Positions 35,673-58,207 of a DNA stretch of 61,371 nucleotides are shown one piece after another. Both the position numbers and the translations under genes were made by a program. Source of the stretch: Methylocystis sp. (GTDB lineage: Bacteria; Pseudomonadota; Alphaproteobacteria; Rhizobiales; Beijerinckiaceae); assembly GCA_016177005.1 (NCBI GenBank), contig JACOWC010000053.1, positions 1 through 61,371 of the forward strand. The letters run 5' to 3'. Numbering within the stretch: position 1 is the first letter of the stretch; each line of letters opens with the position of its first letter. The notes below the pieces were generated by a model, which worked only from the letters and a program-made list of their open reading frames with translations, did not search any database and had not been told where the DNA came from.

Positions 35673-37390
35673 CCGCTCGCCTTGTCCTTCTCTTTGATTT
35701 CGGACGGTTCAATCTCCCAAAAGAACTCCAGGTCGGTCATCTCGATCCGGCAAGGGCCGACTTCACGATTGCGAAGAACCAGAGTGTCGCTGCAGAGCGG
35801 CGGCGCCAGCAGCACGATCTCGCGCCAGCCGTCTTGCGGCGGCAGAGCCGACATTTCGATTCTGAACTCCCGTTCTCCTGGCGACAACACGCCAAAACCA
35901 AAGACGCCTTGGAGCGCGCGGCAACGAAAGCGAACCCAATAGGGGCGATCGGAACCAATGGCGTCCGGCCGCTTGATTTTGAGCGCGAAGGCCCAAGGCG
36001 CGGCGGGCGTCGAGACGCCATACGCCGCCGCGTTGTCGGAGTGGTCGCGGTTCACCTTCGCGCCTTGACACCATTCGGCGTCGATCAGGCTCACCATTTC
36101 AACAGCCAAATCCGTCGCGTCGAAGCTCTCGACCAGGGGCGTCGCATTGCCCTTGAGCGCAGGGGCGGCCGGAGCGGCCGTCGAGCGGATGACTTCCGGC
36201 AAATTCATGTCGGCCATCCCCCAGCCTTCGTCGTTGAAGAGAACCGGCGGCGCGACGCGCGCTTCCTCGCACATCTCCGAAACCAGGCGCGAGAAGTCTT
36301 CCCAACTCACATAAGCGATGCTCCGCTGGTCCATTCGCCGAAACAGCGAATCGGCGCCTTGCGGCGTGTAGCCCGAACCGTAACTGTGCTCGATATGATA
36401 ATGCGGCGCGTTCGATGGAGCGACCCGTTCGGCGTAGCCGTTGACGCCCGCTTGCACGAGGAGAACGGAGTCGATGTTCCAGGAGAACACCGGCCATTCC
36501 GGATAGCTGCGCAATTCGCGCCACCCCTTGGCCGACAGCATGGTGAAGTCGCCGCACCCGTTCAGGTGCCGGTCGGCGGCGACATAGAAATCGCGAAGCT
36601 CGCGCAGAGCGCGCTGCGCGAACTCGTCGAGAAGGGCCGCAGGGTCGCCGCCGTCGTGCAGCAGATCGCGAATGACGCCAAGCCGCGTCTGGATGGGGCG
36701 AATGAGAAGGGAGTCGATCCTCGAAACTGCGGAGATTGAGCGTGCCTTCTCTCCCGCTTCGATCGTTCCCTCCTTCAGGTTTTTTCTTATGGTCTCCTGA
36801 CGCGCGCGCTGCAACAACACGTCGAAATCGGTTTCGAGCTGTATGTCGTTCGGGATGTCCCAACGGTCGGAACGATACACGCAGCGGTCGTCGAGATCGG
36901 CCGTCTTGAGCCAACGAAACAGTTCGTCCGAAAAAATGATGTCGATGTTGGTCGCAACGACATAGTCGCCCGAGGCGCGACGCACCCCCACATTCTTGGC
37001 GATCATTTGAAACATCGCAAGCGTTCGCGCGTGCGGCAGCGACAGATGAACCTCGTGCGGCACGCTGATCACCCGCGCGGCGAACCAGCCGTTCCCAGGT
37101 GGCCAGTCCAGCGCCTCAGCCAAGGGCGCGCGGCTCGACGGCGGATTCCAATCGACGAGGACGAGTTCGCCGCGCAATCGGTGGCGCTCGCACTGCAGGG
37201 CGAGGCAACGGATAAAGCTTTGAGTGCGCCTGAGCGCGTCGCCTCCATGATCGTCATTGCGGGAGGTGGCCACGAAAGAGAACAGCCGGTGGTTGTCGCA
37301 GGTCAGCGCCGGCGACCTTGCGTCCGCCGCGATTGCTCCTTCTATATCCGGCAGGAACTGAGCTTTGCAATCTTTGCGATCAGGCGTCAT
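35645..37390 (-). CDS. GT2-like protein with C-terminal accessory module
   Basis: SRNDDHGG, VLVDWNPP, AKNVGVRRA..YVVATNIDIIF, GCGDFTML. Confidence 0.65.
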   Translation of the reverse strand: MTPDRKDCKAQFLPDIEGAIAADARSPALTCDNHRLFSFVATSRNDDHGGDALRRTQSFIRCLALQCERHRLRGELVLVDWNPPSSRAPLAEALDWPPGNGWFAARVISVPHEVHLSLPHARTLAMFQMIAKNVGVRRASGDYVVATNIDIIFSDELFRWLKTADLDDRCVYRSDRWDIPNDIQLETDFDVLLQRARQETIRKNLKEGTIEAGEKARSISAVSRIDSLLIRPIQTRLGVIRDLLHDGGDPAALLDEFAQRALRELRDFYVAADRHLNGCGDFTMLSAKGWRELRSYPEWPVFSWNIDSVLLVQAGVNGYAERVAPSNAPHYHIEHSYGSGYTPQGADSLFRRMDQRSIAYVSWEDFSRLVSEMCEEARVAPPVLFNDEGWGMADMNLPEVIRSTAAPAAPALKGNATPLVESFDATDLAVEMVSLIDAEWCQGAKVNRDHSDNAAAYGVSTPAAPWAFALKIKRPDAIGSDRPYWVRFRCRALQGVFGFGVLSPGEREFRIEMSALPPQDGWREIVLLAPPLCSDTLVLRNREVGPCRIEMTDLEFFWEIEPSEIKEKDKASGWLVLSANC

Positions 37391-38679
37391 TCGGGAAACT
37401 CGTCCTTGCCGAAGGCGGCCATCAGCGCGTCGTACATCGCGACATATTCGGAGGCGAGGCCCGTGGCGGCGTCTTCATATCCAAAATCTCTCGCCGCTTC
37501 CTCCTCCCAATCGAGATCAAACGGATCGAGCTTCGCCAATCCCGCGAAGACATTGTGGTAATGCGCCGTCTGCGTGAAATTCAGCCGCTCGAGGAACAAG
37601 CCGCAGCCATAGTTGGCGACGGAGCAGGGCTTCGCCTGCGCAAGCGGCGCGTCGATGATCGCATCATCGTACAGGCACCGCTGCATCGTCCCATCCTGCC
37701 GGACATAAATGAGATTCTTGCCGGCGATGCAGGGAATGCCCCGGAAATTTCTGATCCGGTGCACATGAGGACTGATTTTCAAGCCGATCGAGGGACGCTG
37801 GAGACAACGCCCGATCAGGTCTTGCTCCTCCTTGGCGTAAGCGTGCGGATATTGTTTTCCGTTATAGGTTCCGATGAAGGGTATCGGATGAAACAATATT
37901 CCTCTTGCTTGAAACAGGCGGCGATAATGGTCCAGGCGCTCCAAGCGGGTCGGATGTGCGATGAATTGGCATCGAAAGGTGGCGCCGGCTTCGACGAGCG
38001 TAGCGGCGTATTCGAGGAATTTCTCCAGCCGGCTCTCTGCTTCCGGATGCAGCGCCGCACGGATGTCGAGCCGTTCAGCCGCTCCCTTCGGAAGCCAGCG
38101 CGCTGGGTCCTGCGAATTGTTCGTTGGGAAGGAGACGGCCCCATATTTTGCGCAGAGCTCGAGTAAATCGGGAAATTCGGGATGAACGGTGGGCTCGCCG
38201 CCGCCGCATTCGAATGCGGTCACGACGAGCTTGTTCGGGATTAGCTGGTAAACTCTCTCGATCGCGCTCAGATTGAAGCGCTGGGTCGGCTCGGCGTTAT
38301 GGCCAGCTGCGACGCAGTAGAAGCAACGATAGTTGCAGGGATTGCGTACGGCGATGTAGACGTCGCAGACATCGGGGCTGGATCGACGCCGCATTTCGTT
38401 GCGCAGCGGCTGATCGGGTTCGACGAATTGCAATTTGCCGAGCCCCATTCTGGCGCCGAGATGCGACGGATCCGTCCGCAGCGCGGCCTTGTAATGTGCG
38501 ACCGCCGCTTCCATGTCGTCTGTCTTGGCGCGCGCCTCGCCCGACCGAAACTCCGCTTCCCCGTCGCGCAACTTGAAAAGTTCTGGCGTCGAGGGGCTTG
38601 AAGCTCTCGGGGCGATCGCTCCGATCCGCGTTTCCCTCATCCCGGCCGCGCCCGCGGGGCCGTTGCAACCTTCCGACAT
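37387..38679 (-). CDS. Radical SAM protein with N-terminal TPR-like segment
   Basis: CNYRCFYC, GGGEPTVHP; AVAHYKAALRTDP; start uncertain. Confidence 0.85.
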   Translation of the reverse strand: MSEGCNGPAGAAGMRETRIGAIAPRASSPSTPELFKLRDGEAEFRSGEARAKTDDMEAAVAHYKAALRTDPSHLGARMGLGKLQFVEPDQPLRNEMRRRSSPDVCDVYIAVRNPCNYRCFYCVAAGHNAEPTQRFNLSAIERVYQLIPNKLVVTAFECGGGEPTVHPEFPDLLELCAKYGAVSFPTNNSQDPARWLPKGAAERLDIRAALHPEAESRLEKFLEYAATLVEAGATFRCQFIAHPTRLERLDHYRRLFQARGILFHPIPFIGTYNGKQYPHAYAKEEQDLIGRCLQRPSIGLKISPHVHRIRNFRGIPCIAGKNLIYVRQDGTMQRCLYDDAIIDAPLAQAKPCSVANYGCGLFLERLNFTQTAHYHNVFAGLAKLDPFDLDWEEEAARDFGYEDAATGLASEYVAMYDALMAAFGKDEFPE

Positions 38680-38926
38680 CGGCGATCCCCGTTTGTCGCC
38701 TCCCACGCCGAATGAGTACAACAACTGTCGAACGGCGGGCAACCACGCGCGCGCTTCGCGCCAGATTAGATTTTGCCCTGGCGCCTTACCTTGCAGTCGG
38801 CGTGAAGACGAGACTATGTTGCCGACGACGCGCTTGGTTTTCCGTCAAGATATGGACGCTCCGCCTTAAGAACTACCGACGTGGGCGCCTCAAAATTCGA
38901 GGCCGAGAGTTTAAGGAGAGAATTCC

Positions 38927-43436: not shown

Positions 43437-44519
43437 TCACCGCGGTTCCGCGGCGGCCTTCTCGGACGCGGCCAAGAGTTCCGCCTCCGCGAGATAAGCC
43501 GCCGCCTCTCGCCGTTTTCCGGCCTCGAGACAGGCCTGCGCGGCCAGTTCACACGCCTTCTCACGGAATATGCCGCGGTCGAAGGCGAGCAAACCTTCGT
43601 GGAGCTCGTCGGGGTCTATGCGCCGCAGCGCCATCGCTGCCTGGAGCGCTTCCAGGGGACGGCCGGCGTTCAGTAGCGCGTGGCCGCGCAGAAACGCCAG
43701 ACCGTAATCCAGCGCAAGATGATGCGCGTTCTCTTCGATGAGCGGCAGAGGATCGTCGCCCCTTTCGAGACTGAGGCGGGCGATAGCCTGCAGGATCAGG
43801 CTGGCGTTGGCCTCAGCCTTCTCGGAGACATCGAATTCGGCTCTGGCGAAACCTTCATTCGCCGCCGCGAGCGCTTCATCCGTCCTTCCGAGAGCGGCGA
43901 GCGTTTCCGCCAAATGATGCCAGTAGTACAACCGATTCGGTTCGGATCGAACGCAATCTTCGAGCAAGGGCAGATTGCGGGCGTGCTTTTCAGATTGGTC
44001 GCCGTCGTAGCCCAAGTGGTCCAACTCGATGCTGGTCCGGGCGATCGGAAGATTCTCGCGCGCCGAGATCTCCTGCAGAACCGGCATGAACGTCTCGTGG
44101 AGCCTTCCTCGAAACCTTAGACGCGGATCGTTGCGGAAAAGCCGCGGTTCTCTGTAGCGCGTATAGCCTTTCTTCGGCTGGAAGCGGACAGAGGCGGCGA
44201 TTGCGGAAGAATCAAGATAGTCGGAAACTCTCCCGCCTTCTGGCAGACGGAGGCGTTCGTCGGCGTCGATATAGAGAAACCATTCGCTGCCGACCGCGTC
44301 GAGTCCGACGTTTCTCGCGGCCGCGAAGTCCCCGGTCCATTGGTGATGAATGACCTTTGCGCCCGCGCCCGTGGCGATATTGACGGTGGCGTCCGACGAA
44401 CCCGTATCGACGATGATGATGTCATCGACACGCCCCGACAGGCTGTCGAGGCAACCGGGCAGGAAACGCTCCTCGTTCTTGACGATGAGAGCGGCGGCGA
44501 CGGAACTTACGCCTTTCAT
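43437..44519 (-). CDS. GT2 glycosyltransferase with TPR-like C-terminus
   Basis: IVKNEE..L..CL.S, VDTGSSD.T, WTGDFAAARN, IDADE, GRLHE, HLGY. Confidence 0.9.
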   Translation of the reverse strand: MKGVSSVAAALIVKNEERFLPGCLDSLSGRVDDIIIVDTGSSDATVNIATGAGAKVIHHQWTGDFAAARNVGLDAVGSEWFLYIDADERLRLPEGGRVSDYLDSSAIAASVRFQPKKGYTRYREPRLFRNDPRLRFRGRLHETFMPVLQEISARENLPIARTSIELDHLGYDGDQSEKHARNLPLLEDCVRSEPNRLYYWHHLAETLAALGRTDEALAAANEGFARAEFDVSEKAEANASLILQAIARLSLERGDDPLPLIEENAHHLALDYGLAFLRGHALLNAGRPLEALQAAMALRRIDPDELHEGLLAFDRGIFREKACELAAQACLEAGKRREAAAYLAEAELLAASEKAAAEPR

Positions 44520-44591
44520 GACGAGACTGCGCCGGAACTCACACGCATGAATTATGAACGAGTAATCGCCCCACCCTTTGTCGCTTGTCGC

Positions 44592-44798
44592 TCAGAAATT
44601 ACCCATCATGGTGACGGGGGGGACCTTCGTCACGCCCTTGGGGTCAGATCGACGCAGGCGCTCCGTGTCCAACGGGATCACTCGCGGCGCCTCGTACGTG
44701 GCCTTGCCGAAAACCTTCGCAACAATACTCGGAACAGACCGACCCTGCATTCCCGAAAGCGGTTCTCGGGAAGCAGTTTGCTTCAGGGCGGTCTTCAT
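44592..44798 (-). CDS. Putative RiPP precursor peptide (68 aa) with YxxPxV leader motif
   Basis: GGAGG RBS before ATG 44798; MKTALKQ...KATYEAPRVIPLDTERLRRSDPKGVTKVPPVTMMGNF; fills the intergenic gap in a same-strand run containing a PqqD/RRE. Confidence 0.6.
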   Translation of the reverse strand: MKTALKQTASREPLSGMQGRSVPSIVAKVFGKATYEAPRVIPLDTERLRRSDPKGVTKVPPVTMMGNF

Positions 44799-44975
44799 CC
44801 AAGCCTCCATGCATGCGCCACTGTTTACTTTTTCTAACGAAAGAAACCAAAGCGGTCAAGGTCAGGCAAACCTCAAGAAGGCCTCGAACAGCCCGTATTT
44901 AAAGGAAGAGCAAGGAGGCTGATCCGACCCGCGCGCTCCTCGTCCGATGGCCCCTGCGGGAGCGGCCCCTCACGT

Positions 44976-46349
44976 TCACAATATGTCGCAGCGGTAGCCC
45001 AGCCGTTTGCGATCGCTCCCCCAGTCGATTTCCTTGACCACTTGGACTTCAACGTCAAAAGAATCCGTGCAGTGCCTCTTGAGCAATTCTATAAGCCGGG
45101 AGCGCTGACACTGAGTCACATCGTCCTGCGCGCACAGCTCGATTTTAATCGTTCTGTAGCCTGTTTGCCTGATCCGGTATTCTCGCAGATTCACGATTTC
45201 GAGCAATTCGCTATTCCTGACATAGAACGGCGTTATCGACTGATCCGCGTGCTTTAGCAGGCTCTTTGTTCTGCCGCATATGTTGGAAAGCGTCGGTCCA
45301 TCATGTCCGCACGGGCAAACGGCGGCAAGCGAAGCGAAATCGCCGATGTCGTAACGAATCATCGGCGTGGCGTAGGAATGTAAATGAGTCACGAGAACGC
45401 GGCCAAGCTCGACGCCGTTCATGTCGATCTTTTCGCCGCGATCGATTTCCACGACAACGTTGCTCGTCGCAACATGAAACTTGCCTGGCGTGAACTCGCA
45501 CTCCGATGCGATGAGTCCGACCTCTTCCGCCGAATAGCTCGATCGCACCGGGACCCCTCTTTGCGCGAATTTTTCGCGCAACGAATCGTCCACGCCTTCG
45601 CCGATTGGCATCCACATGGACAAGCCGGAATTGGAAAGCAGTTCCTCTTCGGCTTCTCGCAACAACGGTTCGATAATGCGCGGAGATGCGATCAAATAAC
45701 CGATCTCGTCTCTCGCAAGTTCCGTCGCCAGTTTCCTGATGGCAGGGTGAAAGTATTTTATGTGCTTAGTGCCGCCTGACGCAAAGAATGAGTCAAGGTG
45801 ATATAACCACGATCCCTTGCGCTCCACATTGAATCCGTCCGCAAAATGCTCTGGACTGTGTTGCAGGAGAGTCTTGGGTTTCGTAAGTTCTCTGCCTTCA
45901 ATGAAGTATTGAGCCATGCCTCTTATATTATTATACTCCATATTCATTGCGCTAACATAGAATTTCGTCGGCATGCCTGAAGAGCCGGATGTCGAATGCA
46001 GCGCTACCCCTATTCTGTCGGGGGCCCTGAGCAGGCTTTGTTCGCTTGCCACTTGGGCGATGAGATCGCGGCGCCTCAATATCGGCAGCAAATGGAGATC
46101 GAGGCTCTTGACGTTGCGCGACCCGATCCGTCGTCGCCAGAAGGACGACCGGCTCGCGCAGTGCGCGAGAAGATTGTTGATTTGTGCGCGCTGCCACTCT
46201 TCCCGCGCGGCGCGGGTTCCCGTTTCGATCGCGAGCAGATCGATGACGGCGACAAGCGCGTTCTTCACCGCTGGCTCGCAAAACGTCATCGCTTGCGCGC
46301 TGAAGGCCGACTTCAGCACCTCCGCTTTTGAAAAGTCTATGCGCAGCAT
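44976..46349 (-). CDS. PaaK/CapK-like adenylate-forming ligase
   Basis: STSGSSGMP, YSAEEVG.IA.EC, PMIRYDIGD, GRT. Confidence 0.85.
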   Translation of the reverse strand: MLRIDFSKAEVLKSAFSAQAMTFCEPAVKNALVAVIDLLAIETGTRAAREEWQRAQINNLLAHCASRSSFWRRRIGSRNVKSLDLHLLPILRRRDLIAQVASEQSLLRAPDRIGVALHSTSGSSGMPTKFYVSAMNMEYNNIRGMAQYFIEGRELTKPKTLLQHSPEHFADGFNVERKGSWLYHLDSFFASGGTKHIKYFHPAIRKLATELARDEIGYLIASPRIIEPLLREAEEELLSNSGLSMWMPIGEGVDDSLREKFAQRGVPVRSSYSAEEVGLIASECEFTPGKFHVATSNVVVEIDRGEKIDMNGVELGRVLVTHLHSYATPMIRYDIGDFASLAAVCPCGHDGPTLSNICGRTKSLLKHADQSITPFYVRNSELLEIVNLREYRIRQTGYRTIKIELCAQDDVTQCQRSRLIELLKRHCTDSFDVEVQVVKEIDWGSDRKRLGYRCDIL

Positions 46350-46454: not shown

Positions 46455-46802
46455 TCAGGAAAGCCCATCGTTCCGCCGTTTCAGGATCTTCGTTAGAAAG
46501 CGGCGCACAGCCGCTCCTGGCGCCGGGCTCTCGGCTTCCACTAAGCCCTCGGCCAGAAGCATTCTAAGGCAAATCTCGACATCGGTCAGCGGATCCGCGG
46601 TGAGCGCGAACGCTTGCCGCATCAACGCCGCAATAGCGGCCGCGTCGGCTCCGTCCTCGCATAATTCGAGCACGGCGACGGCCGTGGGATTGAGGAGAAT
46701 CGCGCGTTCGGCGCTTTCGTCGTAAATGACGTATCCGTCCAAGACCTCCAAATAGTCGGGGTTCTTGATCTTCCTATATACTTGCCCTGGCTCCTCACGC
46801 AT
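46455..46802 (-). CDS. Stand-alone PqqD-family protein (RiPP recognition element)
   Basis: DGYVIYD...LLNPTA..VLELC..G...IAA.M..AF...DV..CL..L..EGLV. Confidence 0.85.
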   Translation of the reverse strand: MREEPGQVYRKIKNPDYLEVLDGYVIYDESAERAILLNPTAVAVLELCEDGADAAAIAALMRQAFALTADPLTDVEICLRMLLAEGLVEAESPAPGAAVRRFLTKILKRRNDGLS

Positions 46803-46874
46803 CGCGCTCTTCTCGATCTGCTGACTTTATCCCAGAACGCTTTTGTCGGACCTGGTGGCGCAGGCCCGACGGCC

Positions 46875-47915
46875 TCAGGCGACCTCTGCGACGGCGTCGA
46901 TGACCTCGTCAACGCCGATTGTCGCCCCGATCGACGACTCGACGAAATCGACCATGACCTTATGCGCCCAGAAGCCGCTTGCGGTTTCTGGGCTTTCGAG
47001 CGCGATCGTCGCGTCGCGCACCATGATGATGTTGAATCTTTCCCGCCACATGTTGATGACGCCGATCGGGCGCGTCATCAAGCAATAATTTGTCGAATAC
47101 CCCATATATACGAGCCTATCCGCGCCAAGCGCGCGCAAGTCCTCGGCGATATAGTTGGCGTGCAGGCTGCCCTCGATCAGGACTTCATTCGGCCGGGGCG
47201 CGATTGCGGGATGTGGCGCGCGGTCGTGCGGGGCGTGAAAAATCCTGAAGCCCGCACGGCGAAAGGCGGATAAGGCCGGGACCAGGCGATCAACGATGTT
47301 TTCGTGCGCGCGCTGCGCCCAGCCCGGACATTCGTGGTCCGACCAGGCGTCGATGACGATCACCGCGGACCTCCGCGCCTCGAGAATTTCCGACGTGACC
47401 ACGGGCGCGCCGCCTCGTTCAGGATGAGCCTCTGTCCCGCCGAAGGGCGTTTGCGATCGACGTCGCATCGGCAGACGCAGGCGCGCGTCGGAAGTCGGCC
47501 AATTCCGGAGCAGTCCCTCGCCGAAGGGCCTCTCTCTTATGCTCAGCAGAGCGCCCGAGGACGGGTCGCCCGCAGCGGATGCGTTGCGGATCAGCAAGCC
47601 GGCCATTGCGCGGCCTTCCGGAACGAGAAGGGAGCCTGCATGTTTGCCGCTCGCCCAGACCCGCTCCGAAAGTAGCTTCAGATCGGCGCTTACCGCAGCC
47701 AAGCCGATCGCGCCATGCTCGACCTCGAGACTCACGTCGAAGGCGAGGGGGCCTTCCGCCTCCAAATCCGTCGAGACGGGAATGAGAGCCGAGTAGCCGC
47801 CGCAATCCGGATGCGTGCGCACGCGGATTTCGTCTTCGTCGACGCTCAGATGCGCCCCGTTCAGCTGCATCGCCTTCTCTACGCGAACGCACGCCGCGAA
47901 TCTCAAGGGTTCCAT
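46875..47915 (-). CDS. Isochorismatase-like cysteine hydrolase with N-terminal accessory module
   Basis: AVIVIDAW..H.C, LVYMGYSTNYC, VRDAT; GGGAG RBS before ATG 47915. Confidence 0.7.
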   Translation of the reverse strand: MEPLRFAACVRVEKAMQLNGAHLSVDEDEIRVRTHPDCGGYSALIPVSTDLEAEGPLAFDVSLEVEHGAIGLAAVSADLKLLSERVWASGKHAGSLLVPEGRAMAGLLIRNASAAGDPSSGALLSIRERPFGEGLLRNWPTSDARLRLPMRRRSQTPFGGTEAHPERGGAPVVTSEILEARRSAVIVIDAWSDHECPGWAQRAHENIVDRLVPALSAFRRAGFRIFHAPHDRAPHPAIAPRPNEVLIEGSLHANYIAEDLRALGADRLVYMGYSTNYCLMTRPIGVINMWRERFNIIMVRDATIALESPETASGFWAHKVMVDFVESSIGATIGVDEVIDAVAEVA

Positions 47916-48252
47916 CGCGCACTCCCAAGACCCGCATCTGTGGCGGGCGCGCGTATGGACGTTATCACATTGCTCGGGAGCCAAGCGCAGGACTCTTCAG
48001 CCTTCGTCCCCTCACATTCACGTCGTCGCGAAAGGTCAAATTCGTTAAAGAATTGCCGCAATCGGCGCATGATTGCGGTAATTTTATCACAGCTTTCGGA
48101 AAAATGATCGGCGACAGGCTTCAGCGTCAAATCCTTTATTGCCTACGGAAATGAAGTTGGCGATAAAAATTCAGATATGCCTGCGCTCTCCCAATGGATT
48201 GCCGCGAATTGAGGGAAGAGCAACCCCCTGTTGAATCGTGAGACGGCGCATT

Positions 48253-49110
48253 ATGAAAAATCATCTACCGTCTATCTCGGTTCTGGCGCTGCTCATGGCG
48301 TCAGGTTCTGCATTTGCAGCCGACCTTCCTTCGCACAAGGCGCCGCCGCCTCCGCCACCTCCGCCGCCTGCGCCGGCGTTGTGGACGGGCTGCTACGTCG
48401 GTCTCAACGCCGGCTGGACATGGGGCGATCACAATCAGATATCCAACCAGTCCATCGACAGCGAAGGGGCCACTGGGCTAACGACCACATACGCGGCCTC
48501 CCACGCGCCGCTGGACGGATTCATCGGCGGCGGCCAGGCGGGCTGCAATTATCAGTTCCCGGGCAGCAGTTTCGTTCTCGGCCTCGAAACGGACATCCAG
48601 GGCACGACAGCCTCGGGACACGGCGCCGCCGCAGGGTTGGGCGCCGTAGGCCCGAACGCCTTGCTCACGGTGTTCGATAACCACAGAACGCTCGACTATC
48701 TCGGAACCGTGCGCGGTCGGGTCGGCTTCCTCATTACGCCGACGCTGGAGGTCTACGGAACCGGGGGCCTCGCCTATGGCGGAGTCACGGCGAACACCAG
48801 CGCGTTCAGCTTCTGGTCGCCCTTCGGCCAGTTCGGAGGCGGCGCGGGGAACTTCTCCGGCACGCTGGCTGGCTGGACGGCTGGCGCGGGCGTCGAGTGG
48901 ATGTTCATGCCGAACTGGAGCGCGAAGGCCGAGTATCTGCATTACGACCTCGGCCATGCGAATTGGACGACGAGCTGGCTCGTCCCCGGCAACTTCGGCG
49001 GCGTAGGCGCGAATTTCGCGGTCTCTCGTACGACCTTCGACGGCAACATCGTCCGGCTTGGCGTGAACTATCACTTCAACGTGGCTCCGCCGCCCATGAT
49101 CCAATACTGA
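48253..49110 (+). CDS. Outer-membrane beta-barrel protein (Omp25/RopB family)
   Basis: Signal + ADLPSHKAPPPP, WTGCYVGLNAG, GWTAGAGVEW, GVNYHF. Confidence 0.9.
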   Translation: MKNHLPSISVLALLMASGSAFAADLPSHKAPPPPPPPPPAPALWTGCYVGLNAGWTWGDHNQISNQSIDSEGATGLTTTYAASHAPLDGFIGGGQAGCNYQFPGSSFVLGLETDIQGTTASGHGAAAGLGAVGPNALLTVFDNHRTLDYLGTVRGRVGFLITPTLEVYGTGGLAYGGVTANTSAFSFWSPFGQFGGGAGNFSGTLAGWTAGAGVEWMFMPNWSAKAEYLHYDLGHANWTTSWLVPGNFGGVGANFAVSRTTFDGNIVRLGVNYHFNVAPPPMIQY

Positions 49111-49148
49111 TCCGCCGGCGCCATTCGACGACGGAAGACGATCTCGTG

Positions 49149-49182
49149 CGGAAGGCGCCGCCCTCGAAGGCAGCGCCTTTCC
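49149..49182 (+). terminator. Hairpin after the omp gene
   Basis: GGAAGGCGCCGCC-loop-GGCAGCGCCTTTCC. Confidence 0.55.
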
Positions 49183-49236
49183 CGCGAGGCGTGAACGACG
49201 CGCATCAGCCGCTGGCCTGCCAAAAGAGCTGCCGCA

Positions 49237-49266
49237 TTGACAATATTCGCAGAGCCGTAGTAGCCG
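49237..49266 (+). promoter_or_regulatory. Possible sigma70 promoter for the precursor + radical SAM unit
   Basis: Perfect TTGACA at 49237 with a weak TAG-containing -10 region. Confidence 0.4.
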
Positions 49267-49295
49267 TTTTGAATATAGAAACCCAGGAGAACGCC

Positions 49296-49514
49296 ATGTC
49301 GGCCATGTCTCATGAAGTCGATCGCGCAAATCCGGTGAAATCAGCCGTCTTCGCGCCAGCAATCGCGTCCGAGGGCGCTGGGGCAAATCGCGAGCTCAAT
49401 CCAATCATGACGCGCGTTCTCGCCAAGGCTCGTTCGGCGAGGCCCGCTTCCGCCCAAGATGGCGATGCGAGAAAGTCCGAATTTCTCTCGGCGTTTTACA
49501 AATCCGCTGAATAA
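49296..49514 (+). CDS. Putative cyclophane (triceptide) RiPP precursor, 72 aa
   Basis: AGGAG RBS before ATG 49296; helical LNPIMTRVLAKAR leader; C-terminal SEFLSAFYKSAE; stop 15 nt before the rSAM gene. Confidence 0.75.
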   Translation: MSAMSHEVDRANPVKSAVFAPAIASEGAGANRELNPIMTRVLAKARSARPASAQDGDARKSEFLSAFYKSAE

Positions 49515-49529
49515 CGCGTCGCCGGGGCG

Positions 49530-50663
49530 ATGCGGAGCGGTCGCAAGACGGTTCTGGATACGATCATCCTCAAGTTCGCTTCGCGCTGCAATTTGGCGTG
49601 CGATTATTGTTATGAATACGCCGCGGGAGACGCAAGTTGGCGGGCGAAGCCGAAGTTGGCTTCGCCCGACGTGTTTCGGCGTCTCGGGACACGCATAAGC
49701 GAGTTCGGCGAGGAAACGGGCTCGCGACAAATTAATGTGGTCATGCACGGGGGCGAGCCGCTCCTCGTCGGAGTCAAGCGACTCGATCGATTGTTGTCTT
49801 GCCTGCGGGAGGCGGCGCGGCCCGTTGAGATAAAGTATAGTTTGCAGACCAACGGAACGCTTTTGAGCCCCGCAATATGCGACATTCTCGAAGCTCACGA
49901 CGTCTGTGTCGGCGTGAGCCTCGACGGCGGGCCCGAGCACAATGTTTTCCGCAAGGATCTCAAGGGGCGCGAGACATGGGAGCGCGTCAGCCGAGCCATC
50001 CATCGCTTGAAGGCGCGCGCCACAAATCTATTCGGCGGTCTGCTGTGCGTCGTCGATTTCGACACCGATCCCGAGGCCGTCATTACCGCGCTTTGCGACT
50101 TCGATCCGCCGGCGCTCGATCTGCTTCATCCATTCATCACTCATGATATGGCGGGCGCGCGTCGCAAGGAACTCGCCCTTCGGTACGGGCGATGGATGAA
50201 CGAAGCGATGAGGTTCTGGCTCTCCCGCCCGGATTTCGCCCACATCTCCATCCGCGTGTTCGAAGACGCTCTGCAAGCCGCGGTTTCCGCATATCCGCGG
50301 ACGGACTGGTTCGGACGAAGGAGCGTGAGCCTGCTGATCGTCGAGACCGACGGATCTTACGATCTGCTGGATCAGCTCAAAGTGATCGGTCAATCGAGCG
50401 CTGGCGTGCGAAATCTCAAGAAAACCGTCTTCGATTGCTCCCTCCTCGAAGCCGAGCGGATCGCCTGGGGACTGCTTCGCGACGCCAAGGGCGATGTGCT
50501 TCCGTCGGATTGCGCAGACTGCAGATGGCGCGAGATTTGCGCCGGGGGCCACCTTCCGGCGCGCTATTCGCTGGCGCGCGGTTTCGACAATAAATCCGTC
50601 TATTGCGAGGGCATCGGCGCTCTCCTGGACCTTGCTCAGGAAGTGATGCGTGCGCCGCAATGA
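49530..50663 (+). CDS. Radical SAM/SPASM peptide maturase, FxsB/YhhB-like
   Basis: ILKFASRCNLACDYCY, HGGEPLL, QTNG, VETDGSY..LD.LK, CADC...CAGG...RY...GFDNKSVYC. Confidence 0.88.
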   Translation: MRSGRKTVLDTIILKFASRCNLACDYCYEYAAGDASWRAKPKLASPDVFRRLGTRISEFGEETGSRQINVVMHGGEPLLVGVKRLDRLLSCLREAARPVEIKYSLQTNGTLLSPAICDILEAHDVCVGVSLDGGPEHNVFRKDLKGRETWERVSRAIHRLKARATNLFGGLLCVVDFDTDPEAVITALCDFDPPALDLLHPFITHDMAGARRKELALRYGRWMNEAMRFWLSRPDFAHISIRVFEDALQAAVSAYPRTDWFGRRSVSLLIVETDGSYDLLDQLKVIGQSSAGVRNLKKTVFDCSLLEAERIAWGLLRDAKGDVLPSDCADCRWREICAGGHLPARYSLARGFDNKSVYCEGIGALLDLAQEVMRAPQ

Positions 50664-50722
50664 TCGCGGTTCGTCGCTCCTTCGCGAATGCGGACGCGGC
50701 TGGGCGCGTGAAGCGTTCTCGG

Positions 50723-51823
50723 TTACGGGTTCGATATCCGTGGGGCGACAGCCGGCGCGTTGCGCAGTGCGGGTTCGAGCGTTTTGAAGACGAAGTTGGC
50801 GACGACCCTATCGCCTTTCTCCGTCAAATGAATGCCGTCCTGCGAATAAACTCCGTCATCCTTCTCCAAGCTGCCCGTCGCGTCCACGATGAATTTGTGG
50901 GTTGAAGGGAGATCTATTATTTCCTGATAGAGAGACGACAGGCTGTCTACATATTCCCTGCCGTTGGTTTCAATCGAGGCCTGCGCCGCATGCCTGCTCC
51001 GGAAAAAAGCATGGGGTTGGATGAAGGCGTAAAATCTTGCCCCTTGCGATACGCTTATCGCATTCATCAGCTCGATGTTTTTTGAATATTGCTGTCCGAC
51101 GCTGCGGCGACTCGCGACGCCCAAATTCACCGATACGCGGCGTTTAAATAATGCTGGCGTCAGCTGCGAAATAACAGAATAGGTGTTAGAAAAAATACAG
51201 ACGAAGGCGTTAGGCTCGGGATTCGAGAATTGATCGAAAACATATTTTTGATAGGAATGCACCATCGGATGCGAGGGCTCGCCGTAAAAACCCCTGTCGT
51301 TGACCCCGCTATAGGAAATAACGAAGTCAGGATTATACTCCAGCCCATCCCTGACAAGCTTGAGCAGTTCCTGGTTTGTCGAAAACCCGCCAACGCTTCC
51401 ATTAATAATGGTGCCCTTCATATTATTGACGATGAGCAGCTTTGCTAATTCCTCAGGCCAGCTGTGCCCGTACAGAACTCCATCTGCCGTTGACCCGCCA
51501 AGAACAAGTATGATGGGCCTGTCCCACCTTTGATTTTTTGATTTATATATAACATTGCCGTTATCCCACGAATACGACTGTTCAACGCGCTTGAGCTTCG
51601 GCTCGCCGCCGCCGTATCCATAGCCGATGTGGGGATCTAGCGCGGTGAACTCGGCTCCGAGCCGGTCAAGCCGCTCCCGCTTTTGGCTGATTTCGGCGGT
51701 CTTGCGATGGCAGTCGATGTTCGGTTTCCTGTTGGTCGCCTGTAGGAACAAAAATGCGCCGAGCTCCGTGCAACCTAAAGTGACCAATATTGCAAGAATG
51801 ACAGGAAGATGTTTGAGCCTCAT
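50723..51823 (-). CDS. Membrane-anchored SGNH/GDSL hydrolase-like protein
   Basis: N-terminal TM, LGGSTA, YSGVND, DGIH; visibly AT-richer than flanks. Confidence 0.75.
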   Translation of the reverse strand: MRLKHLPVILAILVTLGCTELGAFLFLQATNRKPNIDCHRKTAEISQKRERLDRLGAEFTALDPHIGYGYGGGEPKLKRVEQSYSWDNGNVIYKSKNQRWDRPIILVLGGSTADGVLYGHSWPEELAKLLIVNNMKGTIINGSVGGFSTNQELLKLVRDGLEYNPDFVISYSGVNDRGFYGEPSHPMVHSYQKYVFDQFSNPEPNAFVCIFSNTYSVISQLTPALFKRRVSVNLGVASRRSVGQQYSKNIELMNAISVSQGARFYAFIQPHAFFRSRHAAQASIETNGREYVDSLSSLYQEIIDLPSTHKFIVDATGSLEKDDGVYSQDGIHLTEKGDRVVANFVFKTLEPALRNAPAVAPRISNP

Positions 51824-52029
51824 CGGGACCTCGCTTGCCTCCGTCGGTTTTTTTTAAATGCTGGAGCCAAACTGCGGTGATGGACGATAGGACAGGGAAT
51901 AGCGGCGCGCAACGCGGAGAGGCCAAGCGCGCTAAGGCCTCTCGCGTCCGCCGTCCGCTGCGCGGGAGGAGCATGTCTGTGGTCGCCTCGCGCTCGGAGC
52001 CTGTCGCGAAAACCCATATTTCGGAACGC

Positions 52030-53905: not shown

Positions 53906-53956
53906 TGTCAATGGCGCCCGAAATTTCCCATTTTCTGGCGCCCGAAATTTCCCCAG
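53906..53956 (+). mobile_element. IS21-family-like terminal end (no transposase present)
   Basis: TGTCAA start followed by two 18-nt direct copies of TGGCGCCCGAAATTTCCC (53912-53929, 53936-53953). Confidence 0.6.
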
Positions 53957-54308
53957 TCTCGGGGCTTTGGCGATCAGCCTGCGACGTGATTGGCGTTGAT
54001 TCGCCCAAAATCGAATATCAGCTCCGCGCGGCTCGGTCGTGCAATCGGCGGGTTTATTGTGTCACGCCGCTGCGAGGCGGTCGTGAAACTTGCTGCCGGT
54101 CGCCTCGGCGAAGCGCAGGAGCGTTTTTGCGCTCGGCAACGTTTGCCCGCTCTCCAGCCGAGCGATGGCGGACTGGCTGAAACCGCGCCTGTGGGAAATT
54201 CCGTCCTTATGGAGACGGCCTTATCGGTCTCAGGGCTTTTGTGGGACGGCGCCTTCAATTCCGTGATAGGCGGAAACCGTCCGCCTCTTGAGAAACTCGT
54301 TCCAGCTT

Positions 54309-57062
54309 ATGTCGCGCTCGCTCGCTCCCGTTCTATCGCCGCAAGGCGTTCTGCGCCTCGATCGGTGCGACGATGAATTTCCATTCGATGAGGCGGTCGC
54401 CAATCGGCTCGAAGAGCATTTCGCACGCGATTGCGGTCATGGTCTCTTGCAGCTTGGCGCCGGCGAGGCGGGGAGCCATCTCCCGCCGGCGCTCGCCTTT
54501 TGGCGCGCATTCGCCATGCGATTTGTGGCTGCGCTGTGCGCGCGCGATGATCCGGAGCAGGCCAGAAAGCCGGCGCATGTCCCTCCGCCGCCGCTCTACG
54601 ATCTCGCCGCCCTGATCGACGAGGCGCCGCCGATGCAAGGCGCCGAATATCTGCAACCCCGTGTGCTGGAGGCGTTGTGGCGCGGCATGGAGCGCGTCCT
54701 CGACGCCGAACTCGCGGAAAGCGGGCTTTCGCTTCAGGAGTTTTTCAGGAACCGCGACAGCCGATGGCGTCTCGTGGGACGCGTGCATTTCAACTTGGCG
54801 GAGAACCGCAAGGACTCGGACTATCCCTTCGCCTTCATGGCGACCTATACGTCCTCGCTCGCGGCGCATGGCGCTCTGCGCCATCTGCCGCTCGGGCAAG
54901 CGCTGCGCGAATACGCCGGCGCCGGCGACAAGGCGAAGCTCCTCAAATTGCTCGATCCCGTGCAGGAGGCGAGCGAAAGCTGCGCATGGCTTAAAGAGAT
55001 CGTCGATCGCGGCGAAGTCTTTCATCCCCTGCGATGGACGCCGAAAGACGCGATGCGGTTCCTAGCCGACGTCGAGGCGATGGAGCGGGCCGGCCTCGTC
55101 ATCCGAATGCCCGCGGCGTGGCGGATGAACCGGCCGAGCCGCCCTGCCGTCGAGGCGACGGTCGGCTCGACCGCGCCGTCGCTGCTCGGCGTGGAATCGA
55201 TGTTGGACTTTCGCGTCGACGTGAGCCTCGACGGCGAAGTCCTCACCGACGCAGAGATAGAGGGGCTGCTCGCCGCGTCCGATGGCCTCGCGATGCTGCG
55301 CGGCAAATGGGTCGAAGTCGACGCCGAGCGCTTAAGGGCGACTCTCGACAAATTTCAGGCGGTCGAGCGTCTGGCGAAAAACGAGGGCGTGCCCTTCATC
55401 CAGGCCATGCGCCTGCTCGCGGGCGCCGACATTGGCCAAGCCTCCGAAGCCGCGGCGGATAGGGCGTCCGGAAGGACGCCCGTCGCGAGCGACGGGCTGT
55501 CGCAATGGGCGCATGTGACGGCCGGCCCCTGGCTGGCTGAGGCGCTCGCCGGATGCCGCAGCCCCGAGGGGCTAGCCAAGGAACGTCAGCTGGCCGATCC
55601 GGGAGCGGCGCTGAAAGCCGAATTGCGACCCTATCAGCAGGTCGGCGTGCGCTGGCTGTCGTTTCTCATCCGGCTCGGTCTCGGCGCCTGCCTCGCCGAC
55701 GACATGGGGCTCGGCAAGACCATTCAAGTCCTCGCGCTGCTTCTCACGCTCGATCGAGGCAAATCAGGCGCGGCGCCGAGCCTCCTCGTCGCGCCCGCCT
55801 CGCTTCTCGCCAACTGGGCGTCCGAGGCGGCGCGCTTCGCGCCATCGCTGCGCATAATGGTCGCGCATCCTTCTTTCACGCCGCCCGACCAGTTAAAGGC
55901 GATGGCGGGGGAACGCCTTGCGGACGTCGACCTGGTGGTGACGAGCTATGCGACGCTGTTGCGTCTGCCGTGGATCACCCAATTCCGATGGCGCCTAGCG
56001 GTGCTGGACGAGGCCCAGGTCATCAAAAACCCGAACGCCAAGCAAACGAGGGCGGTCAAATCGCTTCTGGCCAAAGGCCGCATCGTGCTGACCGGCACCC
56101 CGATCGAAAACAATCTGCGCGACTTGTGGTCGATCTTTGATTTCCTCAATCCGGGCCTCTTGGGGTCGTCCAAAGCCTTTGCGAGTTTCGTCAAGACGCT
56201 GGAGTCGCAGGAGCATGTCTCCTACGCGCCGCTGCGCCGGCTCGCGGCGCCCTACATCCTGCGGCGGCTCAAGACTGACAAGAGCGTCATCGCCGATCTT
56301 CCCGACAAGACGGAAGTCAAGGCTTTCTGCCCTCTGACGAAAAAGCAGGCGGCGCTTTATCAGGCGGCGGTCGTGGAGCTCGAAGAGCGGCTGAAACAAT
56401 CGGGCGACGACATGGCGCGGCGCGGACTCGTGCTTTCGTCTCTCATGCGCTTGAAGCAAATCTGCAATCATCCGTCGCAATGGCTGGGAGACGGCGCCTA
56501 TGACGAAGAGGACAGCGGCAAATTCGCGCGCCTGTTCGAAATCGCCGAAACGGTCGCCAGCCGACAAGAAAAGCTGCTGGCGTTCACGCAGTTCAAGGAG
56601 ATCATCCCGGCGATCGAAAGACTGCTTCGCGCGGCGTTCGGCCGCCCCGGCCTCGTATTGCATGGCGAGACGGCGGTGGCGAAGCGCAAGGATCTCGTTA
56701 AGAATTTCCAGGAAGACGAGCGCGTCCCCTTCTTCGTGTTGTCGATAAAGGCGGGCGGCGCGGGACTCAATCTCACTGCCGCTTCGCATGTCGTTCATTT
56801 CGACCGCTGGTGGAATCCAGCCGTCGAGAATCAGGCGACCGACCGCGCCTTTCGCATCGGGCAAAAGCGCAACGTCCTCGTGCATAAATTCGTCTGCCGT
56901 GGCACGATTGAAGAGCGAATCGACCAGTTGATCGAATCGAAGCGGCAATTGGCGCAGGATTTCCTCGGCGGCGGTGGGGAAATCAAGCTGACCGAAATGA
57001 GCGACCGCGACCTGCTGGCGCTCATGCGGCTCGATCTCGATGCGGCGATGAAAGAAGCCTGA
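54309..57062 (+). CDS. SNF2-family helicase/ATPase
   Basis: LRPYQ, LADDMGLGKT, DEAQ, TGTPIEN, DRWWNPAVE.QATDRAFRIGQ. Confidence 0.95.
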   Translation: MSRSLAPVLSPQGVLRLDRCDDEFPFDEAVANRLEEHFARDCGHGLLQLGAGEAGSHLPPALAFWRAFAMRFVAALCARDDPEQARKPAHVPPPPLYDLAALIDEAPPMQGAEYLQPRVLEALWRGMERVLDAELAESGLSLQEFFRNRDSRWRLVGRVHFNLAENRKDSDYPFAFMATYTSSLAAHGALRHLPLGQALREYAGAGDKAKLLKLLDPVQEASESCAWLKEIVDRGEVFHPLRWTPKDAMRFLADVEAMERAGLVIRMPAAWRMNRPSRPAVEATVGSTAPSLLGVESMLDFRVDVSLDGEVLTDAEIEGLLAASDGLAMLRGKWVEVDAERLRATLDKFQAVERLAKNEGVPFIQAMRLLAGADIGQASEAAADRASGRTPVASDGLSQWAHVTAGPWLAEALAGCRSPEGLAKERQLADPGAALKAELRPYQQVGVRWLSFLIRLGLGACLADDMGLGKTIQVLALLLTLDRGKSGAAPSLLVAPASLLANWASEAARFAPSLRIMVAHPSFTPPDQLKAMAGERLADVDLVVTSYATLLRLPWITQFRWRLAVLDEAQVIKNPNAKQTRAVKSLLAKGRIVLTGTPIENNLRDLWSIFDFLNPGLLGSSKAFASFVKTLESQEHVSYAPLRRLAAPYILRRLKTDKSVIADLPDKTEVKAFCPLTKKQAALYQAAVVELEERLKQSGDDMARRGLVLSSLMRLKQICNHPSQWLGDGAYDEEDSGKFARLFEIAETVASRQEKLLAFTQFKEIIPAIERLLRAAFGRPGLVLHGETAVAKRKDLVKNFQEDERVPFFVLSIKAGGAGLNLTAASHVVHFDRWWNPAVENQATDRAFRIGQKRNVLVHKFVCRGTIEERIDQLIESKRQLAQDFLGGGGEIKLTEMSDRDLLALMRLDLDAAMKEA

Positions 57063-57079
57063 CGCCAAGGACCTACGCC

Positions 57080-58207
57080 ATGAGCTATTACGGCTTTCGT
57101 CCCTATGTGCCGGTCGCAAAATGGCGGGCGCTGGCCGCCCGGGAAGTGGAGAAGCTCAAGAAGAAGGGGCGCGTCATCGCGCCGGTGACGATCGAGGGGC
57201 GCACGATCGCGCGCAATTTTTGGGGCAAGGCTTGGTGCGAAAATTTGGAGCGATACTCCGATTTCGAAAACCGTCTCCCGCGCGGCAGGACTTATGTCCG
57301 CAATGGTTCGGTCGTCGACTTGCAAATCGAGCGCGGGCAGGTGCGAGCGATGGTCAGCGGCTCCGAGATCTATGAGGTGAAAATCTACATCGCCACGGTG
57401 GCGCCGTCACGCTGGAAGGCGATTTGCGCGGATTGTGCGCGCTCCATCGGCTCGCTTGTCGAATTGCTGCAAGGCAAGCTCTCGAAAAACGTCATGGAGC
57501 GCGTGTGCCGGGAAGGCGAGGGGCTGTTTCCAGCGCCGAGCGAAATCAAGATGTCGTGCACTTGTCCCGACTGGGCCGACATGTGCAAACATGTGGCGGC
57601 GGCGCTCTATGGCGCGGGCGCGCGTCTCGACGCTGCGCCCGATCTCCTGTTCGCGCTGCGCGGCGTCGATCGCGCGGAATTGATCAAAGACGCAGGCGCC
57701 GATCTGCCGATGACGCGGACGGTCGCGGCGAACGAGCGCGTTCTCGCGGACGACGATGTGGCGGCGCTGTTCGGCATTGAAATCGCGCCAGCTCCAGACG
57801 CGCAGCGAACCACGGACAAGAAAAGAAAGCCGCCATCGCAAAGCCGGACGCCAGCGCAAGCCGCGAAAGCGTCGAGCCGTTCCCGAAAGGAGACGGCGCC
57901 GAAGGCCGCCGGTCGGCGAACGATAGAGCCGGTGGAGCCGACTTCTCCCAAAGCGGCGCGCGCGATGAACGCGCTTGCGGCGCCAGAGGAAACGCCTGCC
58001 CGCGAGAAAGGGTCGAGAACCCGCGCCGACGCTCGCAAGGCGACGTCGCTGAAAAAGAATGCGCGCCCGGTCGTGGCGATGCCGAAAAAGGCTCCTTCCC
58101 AGACTGAGAATCGCGAGCGAATAGCCAAAGCCGGATCGCGCCGGCAAGGCCGCACTCGAGCCACGAAATGGATTGGCGCCCGCGCGCGCAAGGCATGCGA
58201 ACGATGA
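57080..58207 (+). CDS. SWIM zinc-finger protein with basic low-complexity tail
   Basis: NRLPRGRTY, CTCPDWADMCKH. Confidence 0.88.
   Translation: MSYYGFRPYVPVAKWRALAAREVEKLKKKGRVIAPVTIEGRTIARNFWGKAWCENLERYSDFENRLPRGRTYVRNGSVVDLQIERGQVRAMVSGSEIYEVKIYIATVAPSRWKAICADCARSIGSLVELLQGKLSKNVMERVCREGEGLFPAPSEIKMSCTCPDWADMCKHVAAALYGAGARLDAAPDLLFALRGVDRAELIKDAGADLPMTRTVAANERVLADDDVAALFGIEIAPAPDAQRTTDKKRKPPSQSRTPAQAAKASSRSRKETAPKAAGRRTIEPVEPTSPKAARAMNALAAPEETPAREKGSRTRADARKATSLKKNARPVVAMPKKAPSQTENRERIAKAGSRRQGRTRATKWIGARARKACER

What the first reader, a model, noticed from the sequence alone, without database searches (positions are those of the whole stretch)
49296..50663. Hidden triceptide-like precursor paired with an FxsB-like radical SAM
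Seen: the ORF track buries this peptide in a longer frame, but ATG 49296 has its own AGGAG RBS, follows a terminator and a TTGACA, and the stop is 15 nt before the rSAM. All C-terminal aromatics cluster in SEFLSAFYKSAE. Established: FxsB/YhhB-type rSAM/SPASM enzymes form three-residue cyclophanes on aromatic-X-X motifs, and FxsA precursors have a helical 'L.R.L' leader with terminal FxS. Inference: F-L-S plus Y-K-S (or F-Y-K) could give a bicyclic product, an atypical core in an alphaproteobacterium. No HExxH partner, protease or exporter is adjacent.
Basis: partly seen in the sequence, partly recalled or inferred. Interest (0 to 1): 0.85.

Follow-up and report, generated by a model that had tools for sequence, protein, structure and literature searches.

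The report
Stripped-down ring-peptide gene pair
A methane-oxidising bacterium carries a real small-peptide gene next to a radical-SAM enzyme gene that likely staples a phenylalanine to a nearby serine to make a ring; the pair looks like a cut-down form of an unnamed family of larger peptide-modifying gene clusters.

Summary
The 72-aa ORF (49296-49514) and the 377-aa radical SAM gene (49530-50663) are real. A second strain differs in the ORF by 5 silent changes and 1 replacement. The enzyme is not FxsB, YhhB or a sulfatase maturase by NCBIfam cut-offs. It belongs to an unnamed, mostly metagenomic sister clade that has Pro-Phe where FxsB has Pro-His and YhhB/ChlB has Pro-Asp. Relatives typically sit in larger clusters: precursor, aKG-HExxH, this enzyme, a second paralogous rSAM, and in some loci a DUF483 pair and a second HExxH. 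Their precursors (81 clusters) carry a leader plus H-x-x-Y/F-x-S-G-V-F-E, usually twice. The window peptide keeps the leader. Its tail most likely maps K-S-E/F-L-S/A-F-Y-K onto that core, so F-L-S equals the conserved Y-x-S and the His motif is gone. The second rSAM and the HExxH genes are also missing beside it. Best reading: one Phe63-Ser65 cyclophane (about 0.5). A second Tyr68-Ser70 ring is possible (0.2); F-Y-K is disfavoured. No chemistry was shown, and the core alignment is only modestly significant. The scan's earlier notes hold other triceptide-like clusters but no sequence look-alike. Verdict: new variant of a known kind.

The parts
49142..49189 (+). G+C-rich hairpin after the upstream outer-membrane-protein gene; no U-tract; possible transcription stop or RNA-stabilising element
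   Evidence: -32 kcal/mol, z -4.5; not called as terminator
49237..49242 (+). TTGACA, possible -35 box without a consensus -10
49285..49289 (+). AGGAG ribosome-binding site, 6 nt before the precursor ATG
49296..49514 (+). 72-aa precursor peptide gene
49398..49439 (+). Leader helix, residues 35-48 (NPIMTRVLAKARSA); predicted to dock on rSAM helices 230-253
   Evidence: 18.1 bits against the family leader matrix
49473..49502 (+). Core, residues 60-69, aligned to the family core H-x-x-Y/F-x-S-G-V-F-E
49482..49490 (+). F63-L64-S65, the most likely cyclophane motif (equals the family's Y-x-S)
   Evidence: inferred
49497..49505 (+). Y68-K69-S70, possible second motif (equals the family's F-E-x)
   Evidence: inferred, weaker
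49530..50663 (+). 377-aa radical SAM enzyme of an unnamed clade sister to YhhB/FxsB/ChlB
49587..49610 (+). CxxxCxxC radical SAM motif (C20, C24, C27)
50133..50135 (+). F202, at the position matching HtkB D214 / HaaB H204 (X3 pocket); Pro-Phe is the clade mark
50511..50606 (+). C328, C331, C337, C359: four invariant cysteines for one auxiliary Fe-S cluster

Best explanation
The 72-residue peptide is likely the substrate of the neighbouring radical SAM enzyme, which is predicted to bind its helical leader and would join the ring of Phe63 to the beta-carbon of Ser65, giving one three-residue cyclophane. Shown: both genes are intact, adjacent and conserved in a second strain, and the enzyme groups with cyclophane synthases in an unnamed Pro-Phe clade. 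Also shown: relatives pair this enzyme with leader-HxxYxSGVFE precursors, a second paralogous rSAM and HExxH enzymes. Predicted: leader residues 35-49 dock on helices 230-253 and core residues 58-69 enter the barrel. Inferred from the triceptide literature: SAM cleavage, H abstraction at Ser C-beta, radical attack on the Phe ring, loss of 2 Da. Inferred from comparison: the pair is a reduced copy of the larger cluster that lost the His motif, the second rSAM and the HExxH hydroxylases. That suggests this enzyme serves the Y/F-x-S motif and the missing paralogue the H-x-x motif. Leader removal and export would need general host proteins. The biological role is unknown; a small secreted or surface-acting ring peptide is the default guess.
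For: NCBIfam best hits are YhhB 302.9 and FxsB 296.6, against anSME 138. The best PDB match is ChlB by sequence (E 1e-63) and by fold (TM 0.88-0.89, 35% identity). In a 134-sequence tree the enzyme nests among rSAM1 proteins of loci L002-L005, inside a Pro-Phe clade (support 0.989) apart from YhhB and FxsB. Of 142 family cores, position 4 is Y 132 / F 10 and position 6 is S 133. The window leader scores 18.1 bits. The best of 10 core registers is K60-K69 (0.3 bits; next -5.7), at a leader spacing of 20 (family 16-24). Combined score was reached by 0 of 5000 random 72-mers and 1 of 5000 shuffles. Predicted complex: score 0.78, best of 3 controls 0.00; that mark was reached by 116 of 157 solved complexes and 2 of 215 mismatched pairs; runs agree in at least 60% of contacts; partner pLDDT 56-69. 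Strain differences in the precursor are 5 silent to 1 replacement. The same gene order lies on one 7174-nt contig of another strain. MscB makes a Phe C4 to Ser C-beta bond (PMC11002830, passage).
Against: No chemistry was tested. The core match is weak on its own: P 0.008 for one register, 0.05 for the best of six, 0.08 against shuffles of its own tail. An HMM of family units aligned only the leader (7.4 bits, not among the top hits of 36,959 genome ORFs), and hhalign gave 37% probability. The peptide lacks both residues that anchor the family pattern (His1, Gly7). The complex may pass from likeness to the solved ChlB-ChlA structures 9GM3/9GMC. The division of labour rests on one lineage. L006 has a His core with no second rSAM on the piece held, and a sibling family uses one rSAM with several His-Ser motifs. 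No protease or exporter is adjacent, and no HExxH was found in the 65%-complete genome.
Confidence: 0.5

Rival explanations
1. Bicyclic product: the enzyme closes both F63-S65 and Y68-S70, -4 Da in all.
For: Y68 sits at family position 9, which is Phe in 132 of 142 cores, so an aromatic is kept there. S70 gives the same X3 as the first motif. Single maturases can close several motifs: MicB closes YSK, HAS and FTK (PMC12912966, part 1 read).
Against: Family position 11 is highly variable (D, E, K, Q, S, A, T, N, P), 2 cores end before it, and 10 of 142 have a non-aromatic at position 9. That fits a follower or recognition residue better than a ring motif.
Confidence: 0.2
2. The enzyme acts on the peptide with other chemistry: Ser65 oxidation to formylglycine or aminomalonate, a link spanning more than three residues, a C-O link, or F67-Y68-K69.
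For: The Pro-Phe pocket differs from the characterised enzymes compared here. SjiB oxidises Ser to formylglycine on a short aromatic-x-Ser substrate (PMC13598754, passage). The family core has three spaced aromatic or His residues.
Against: The closest structure and models are all three-residue cyclophane synthases. F67 maps to family position 8, never aromatic in 142 cores. An Asp at the F202 position goes with basic X3 in HtkB (PMC11499958), and this enzyme has Phe.
Confidence: 0.13
3. A decaying remnant: the cluster lost most of its genes and the pair no longer makes a product.
For: The second rSAM, HExxH and DUF483 genes are not adjacent and were not found in the genome (65% complete). His1 and Gly7 are lost. 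The pair was not found in 60 relatives or 400 family genomes.
Against: Both frames are intact in strains about 3.6% apart (72 differences in 2001 nt). Precursor changes are 5 silent to 1. Of the 20 listed rSAM changes 13 are silent (list cut at 40 of 83 rows). None of the 11 residue differences of P0124 touches the catalytic cysteines. An RNA-library contig covers 49284-49630 (weak).
Confidence: 0.13
4. The rSAM is a sulfatase-type maturase or acts on another protein, and the ORF is incidental.
For: The general SPASM-type fold is shared with anSME (TM about 0.8).
Against: anSME score 138 against a cut-off of 349. The anSME cysteines outside the C-terminal four are not matched. Relatives carry a conserved precursor. 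The leader match and complex prediction point to this peptide.
Confidence: 0.04

Closest known systems
YhhA/YhhB and ChlA/ChlB triceptide systems (NF041705/NF041707; PDB 9GM3, 9GMC)
   Same: Best HMM, sequence and fold match. Precursor directly upstream. Similar 'NP...RVLA' helical leader. Four C-terminal cysteines.
   Different: 35-39% identity and 302.9 bits against a cut-off of 445. Pro-Phe instead of Pro-Asp. No fused HExxH domain (YhhB on plasmids is about 715 aa). Core is not YDRxHHRHNR.
FxsA/FxsB (MscB, SjiB; TIGR04269)
   Same: Aromatic-x-Ser motif; MscB forms Phe C4-Ser C-beta. Score 296.6.
   Different: Below the cut-off of 370. Separate clade with Pro-His. The motif is not the C-terminal FxS. 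Host is an alphaproteobacterium; FxsB hits were actinobacterial.
HtkB and HaaB triceptide synthases (PMC11499958)
   Same: Stand-alone maturase with an upstream precursor; they define the X3-pocket residue that maps to F202.
   Different: His-based motifs; Asp or His at the pocket. Their sequences were not aligned by a tool here; the mapping is by hand count and through anSME D196.
HXS system, HxsABCD (PMC13128918, abstract only)
   Same: Two radical SAM enzymes with His-x-Ser motifs, like the parent family of this locus.
   Different: HxsB model scores 44 against 370. The effector is a large periplasmic protein with a +8 Da change. An analogy only.

Membership tests
Triceptides / 3-CyFE (class) | Radical SAM enzyme of the cyclophane-synthase group with CxxxCxxC and C-terminal auxiliary-cluster cysteines | tested here: met
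Triceptides / 3-CyFE (class) | Adjacent precursor with leader and aromatic-X-X motif | tested here: met
Triceptides / 3-CyFE (class) | Aromatic-to-C-beta crosslink on a three-residue motif (definition in PMC11499958) | not testable with these tools
   needs co-expression, MS/MS and NMR
FxsB (TIGR04269) | Score at or above 370 bits | tested here: not met
   296.6
FxsB (TIGR04269) | Groups with named FxsB proteins; Pro-His at the X3 pocket | tested here: not met
FxsA precursor | Matches an FxsA model; C-terminal FxS (the latter recalled) | tested here: not met
   no such hit at E<=0.1; five to seven residues follow the motif
YhhB (NF041707) | Score at or above 445 bits | tested here: not met
   302.9
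YhhA (NF041705) | Score at or above 36 bits | tested here: not met
   no hit for the window peptide; a relative's leader reaches 22.2; 3 of 21 members match weakly
Anaerobic sulfatase maturase (TIGR03942) | Score at or above 349 bits | tested here: not met
   138
HXS (HxsB, TIGR03978) | Score at or above 370 bits; HxS-repeat effector | tested here: not met
   44.3; no His in the core
Unnamed Pro-Phe, HxxYxSG family (defined here) | Enzyme nests in the rSAM1 clade; leader matches | tested here: met
Unnamed Pro-Phe, HxxYxSG family (defined here) | Core with His1 and Gly7; HExxH and second rSAM adjacent | tested here: not met

The most novel reading that the evidence does not exclude
The relatives form an undescribed branch of cyclophane RiPP systems in which two duplicated radical SAM enzymes split the work on one core, one for H-x-x and one for Y/F-x-S, with two HExxH oxygenases and a DUF483 pair as further tailoring enzymes. 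The Methylocystis pair is a natural one-enzyme, His-less reduction that shows which enzyme does what, and its Pro-Phe pocket may give a ring type or Ser chemistry not yet seen.
Probability: 0.3. Interest if true: 0.7.

Novelty: new variant of a known kind. Interest (0 to 1): 0.5.

Why it matters
Triceptide maturases are sought as catalysts for strained peptide rings. This locus points to an unnamed clade: about 65 rSAM1 clusters, about 100 rSAM2 clusters and 81 precursor clusters, nearly all from metagenomes. It has a different specificity residue and paired maturases. The two-gene Methylocystis version is the simplest member to express, and it makes the division-of-labour question testable with three or four plasmids. 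The class of chemistry is probably known, so the gain is a new branch, not a new principle.

Tried and rejected
Single-protein locus search in genome contigs found no relative. Viral contigs: 19 loci, none above 38%. Plasmids: 17 records, at most 39%. Whole-genome searches found the enzyme only in the own genome: 1 of 61 at 1e-40, 1 of 401 family at 1e-60, 1 of 401 phylum at 1e-80. In 77 same-genus genomes the listed DNA matches to 44-54 kb were almost all paralogues of the outer-membrane gene (424 matches not listed). Vestigial first core at precursor residues 11-20: score 3.6 bits, P 0.05-0.08, spacing 29 outside the family's 15-26; not supported. F-Y-K ring: rejected on register and pocket residue. 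Sigma-70 promoter and intrinsic terminator scans: negative at the site. Rfam over 40000-61371: 0 hits. PDB search with the precursor profile: nothing below E 1. RNA run X19 holds contigs only; its cover of 49284-49630 and gaps elsewhere cannot show a start, strand or level. The PqqD-like gene at 46455-46802 is on the other strand in a different unit and was not linked. In the predicted complex S70 is not named among confident contacts, which the tool says is no evidence. Literature: 8 full-text searches; core motif strings gave 0 papers and 0 hits in one supplement.

Full report
OBSERVATION. The coordinates hold. A 72-aa ORF starts at ATG 49296 with AGGAG 6 nt upstream, ends at 49514, and is followed after 15 nt by a 377-aa radical SAM gene, 49530-50663. 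A longer same-frame ORF hides it. Upstream are a strong hairpin at 49142-49189 (z -4.5) and TTGACA at 49237. The consensus scan calls neither a terminator nor a promoter there. The neighbours are an outer-membrane beta-barrel gene upstream and a convergent GDSL-like gene downstream, with glycosyl-transfer and acyl-ligase-like genes around. A cluster member at 99% identity is labelled Methylocystis sp..

IS THE SMALL ORF A GENE? Contigs from four studies carry a second strain (72 differences in 2001 nt for run X4). In the precursor the six listed differences are five silent and one D55N (P 0.005-0.015), and protein P0134 confirms a single replacement. A 1-nt insertion after 49208 breaks the 107-aa extension that some sources call, which favours the 49296 start. 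One 7174-nt contig of that strain spans 46858-51917 with the same gene order, so the two-gene layout is not an assembly artefact. One RNA library has a contig over 49284-49630; contigs cannot show transcription, so this is a weak hint only.

THE ENZYME. NCBIfam ranks YhhB (302.9; cut-off 445) and FxsB (296.6; 370) far above anSME (138; 349), but none passes. The best solved relative is ChlB (E 1e-63; TM 0.88-0.89, on a model of mean pLDDT 92.8). The top of the homologue list is about 60 unnamed metagenomic proteins at 40-56% identity; named YhhB/FxsB proteins appear only at 34-38% (best 120 of 661 listed). I built a midpoint-rooted FastTree of 134 sequences, leaving out hits under 340 aa. It puts the window enzyme inside this group (sister to P0004, P0006, P0016, P0041; support 0.968). 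It joins the group to a second paralogue group in one clade (0.989) apart from YhhB and FxsB. That clade has Phe (Tyr or Leu in a few) after the conserved Pro201, where FxsB-like proteins mostly have His and YhhB/ChlB Asp. PMC11499958 (main text parts 1-2 and supplement part 2 read) shows this position (HtkB D214, HaaB H204) tunes X3 preference, Asp favouring basic residues. The mapping to F202 rests on my hand count of the HtkB gene and on the anSME D196 alignment, which agrees within one residue. C328, C331, C337 and C359 are invariant in 59 sequences. Reading them as ligands of one auxiliary cluster uses recalled anSME numbering.

THE FAMILY. Five of 80 metagenome loci belong to this clade (L002-L006). 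All 5 have an HExxH-motif gene directly upstream of the enzyme: three were confirmed as aKG-HExxH, two were seen by motif. Four of 5 have the second rSAM directly downstream (L003 only its start); L006 has another gene there. Three of 5 include a precursor, and the other two contigs begin too late. L004 and L006 add DUF483-type genes and a second HExxH. Among protein clusters, 18 of 67 rSAM1 share an exact longest-contig length with an rSAM2 (null mean 0.5, maximum 4), which is indirect evidence that pairing is common. Two precursor searches returned 87 other clusters. I dropped 6 long repetitive proteins. All 81 kept hold H-x-x-Y/F-x-x-G: 59 twice, 21 once, 1 three times, 142 cores in all. 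H, the aromatic class and G were the anchor pattern and the query profile was built largely from such cores, so His-less variants would be under-sampled. Free positions show S at 6 in 133, F at 9 in 132, E at 10 in 133, and a variable position 11.

WHERE THE WINDOW PEPTIDE FITS. With the window left out of the model, its leader scores 18.1 bits. The best of ten core registers is K60-K69, at a spacing inside the family range. The combined score was reached by 0 of 5000 random 72-mers and 1 of 5000 shuffles. So K-S-E answers H-x-x, F-L-S answers Y-x-S, and A-F-Y-K answers G-V-F-E. The core match alone is modest (P 0.008-0.08); HMMER aligned only the leader and hhalign gave 37%. A predicted complex scored 0.78 against a best control of 0.00 (mark reached by 116 of 157 solved and 2 of 215 mismatched pairs; runs agree in at least 60% of contacts; partner pLDDT 56-69). 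It put the leader on helices 230-253 and residues 58-69 in the barrel. ChlB-ChlA complexes are solved, so the pass may reflect likeness.

MECHANISM. Most likely the enzyme binds the leader, cleaves SAM, abstracts H from Ser65 C-beta and couples it to the Phe63 ring (-2 Da), as MscB does for Phe-Ser (PMC11002830, passages). These steps are inferred, not shown. The His motif, the second rSAM and the HExxH genes are all missing here; no second rSAM or HExxH or DUF483 gene was found in a 65%-complete genome. This suggests the retained enzyme handles Y/F-x-S. It is a single lineage, L006 does not clearly fit, and a sibling family with His-Ser-rich cores ending in the same H-S-S-Y-V-S-G uses one Pro-His enzyme, so this is a hypothesis. 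A second ring at Y68-S70 is possible because position 9 is aromatic in the family and multi-ring maturases exist (PMC12912966, part 1 and passages). The variable position 11 argues against it. Ser oxidation to formylglycine is a known side activity of SjiB (PMC13598754, passages). No protease or exporter is linked.

NOVELTY. It works like a triceptide system but fails the cut-offs for FxsB, YhhB, FxsA and YhhA. Eight searches of the held library found no description of the core or of paired 3-CyFE clusters. Nguyen 2020, Sugiyama 2022, Morishita 2024 and Ruel 2025 were seen only as citations or through others' summaries, and their supplements may list the family. Other papers seen: PMC12186529, PMC12636437 and PMC10288494 as passages; PMC13128918 as abstract. 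The scan's own index had no sequence look-alike; its word search listed other triceptide-like clusters in other genomes, which I did not use as support.

VERDICT. A real precursor-maturase pair and a new variant of a known kind.

Noticed in passing
L023:783-4442, L035:3953-7107, L074:1291-4209: Sibling system: precursors with His-Ser-rich cores ending in H-S/T-S-Y-V-S/T-G, then an HExxH gene and one rSAM (Pro-His type in L023 and L074; L035's start was not resolved). No NCBIfam name for the precursors.
   Followed up: partly
L004:4740-6421, L006:1118-2678: A pair of related unknown genes inside the clusters; 3 of the 4 pass the DUF483 cut-off. Possible new tailoring enzymes.
   Followed up: partly
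window 44580-44808: RNA-library contig (depth 17) lying in the gap between the genes at 43437-44519 and 44976-46349; possibly a leader or small RNA; no Rfam hit.
   Followed up: partly
window 46455-46802 (-): Stand-alone PqqD-like protein beside an acyl-CoA-ligase-like gene (44976-46349) in a glycosylation-type region.
   Followed up: no
window 37387-38742 (-): Another, weakly scoring radical SAM-like protein (25.8 bits, under the Pfam cut-off), not found by tblastn with the maturase.
   Followed up: no
window 53915-58207: The strain in run X4 follows the window to 53915 and then diverges; the SNF2 helicase gene and its neighbour were not covered by long pieces there.
   Followed up: no
P0182: A three-core precursor of the family runs on into a further domain of about 135 residues, a possible fusion or read-through.
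   Followed up: no
window 49326-49355: Precursor residues 11-20 weakly resemble the family core and might be a vestige of a first repeat; P 0.05-0.08.
   Followed up: yes
window 49515-49534: The rSAM start region can fold into a hairpin (z -1.9, 9 of 200 shuffles), compatible with translational coupling but marginal.
   Followed up: partly
L006:184-1115: The HExxH gene after the precursor seems split over two frames; error or broken gene not resolved.
   Followed up: no
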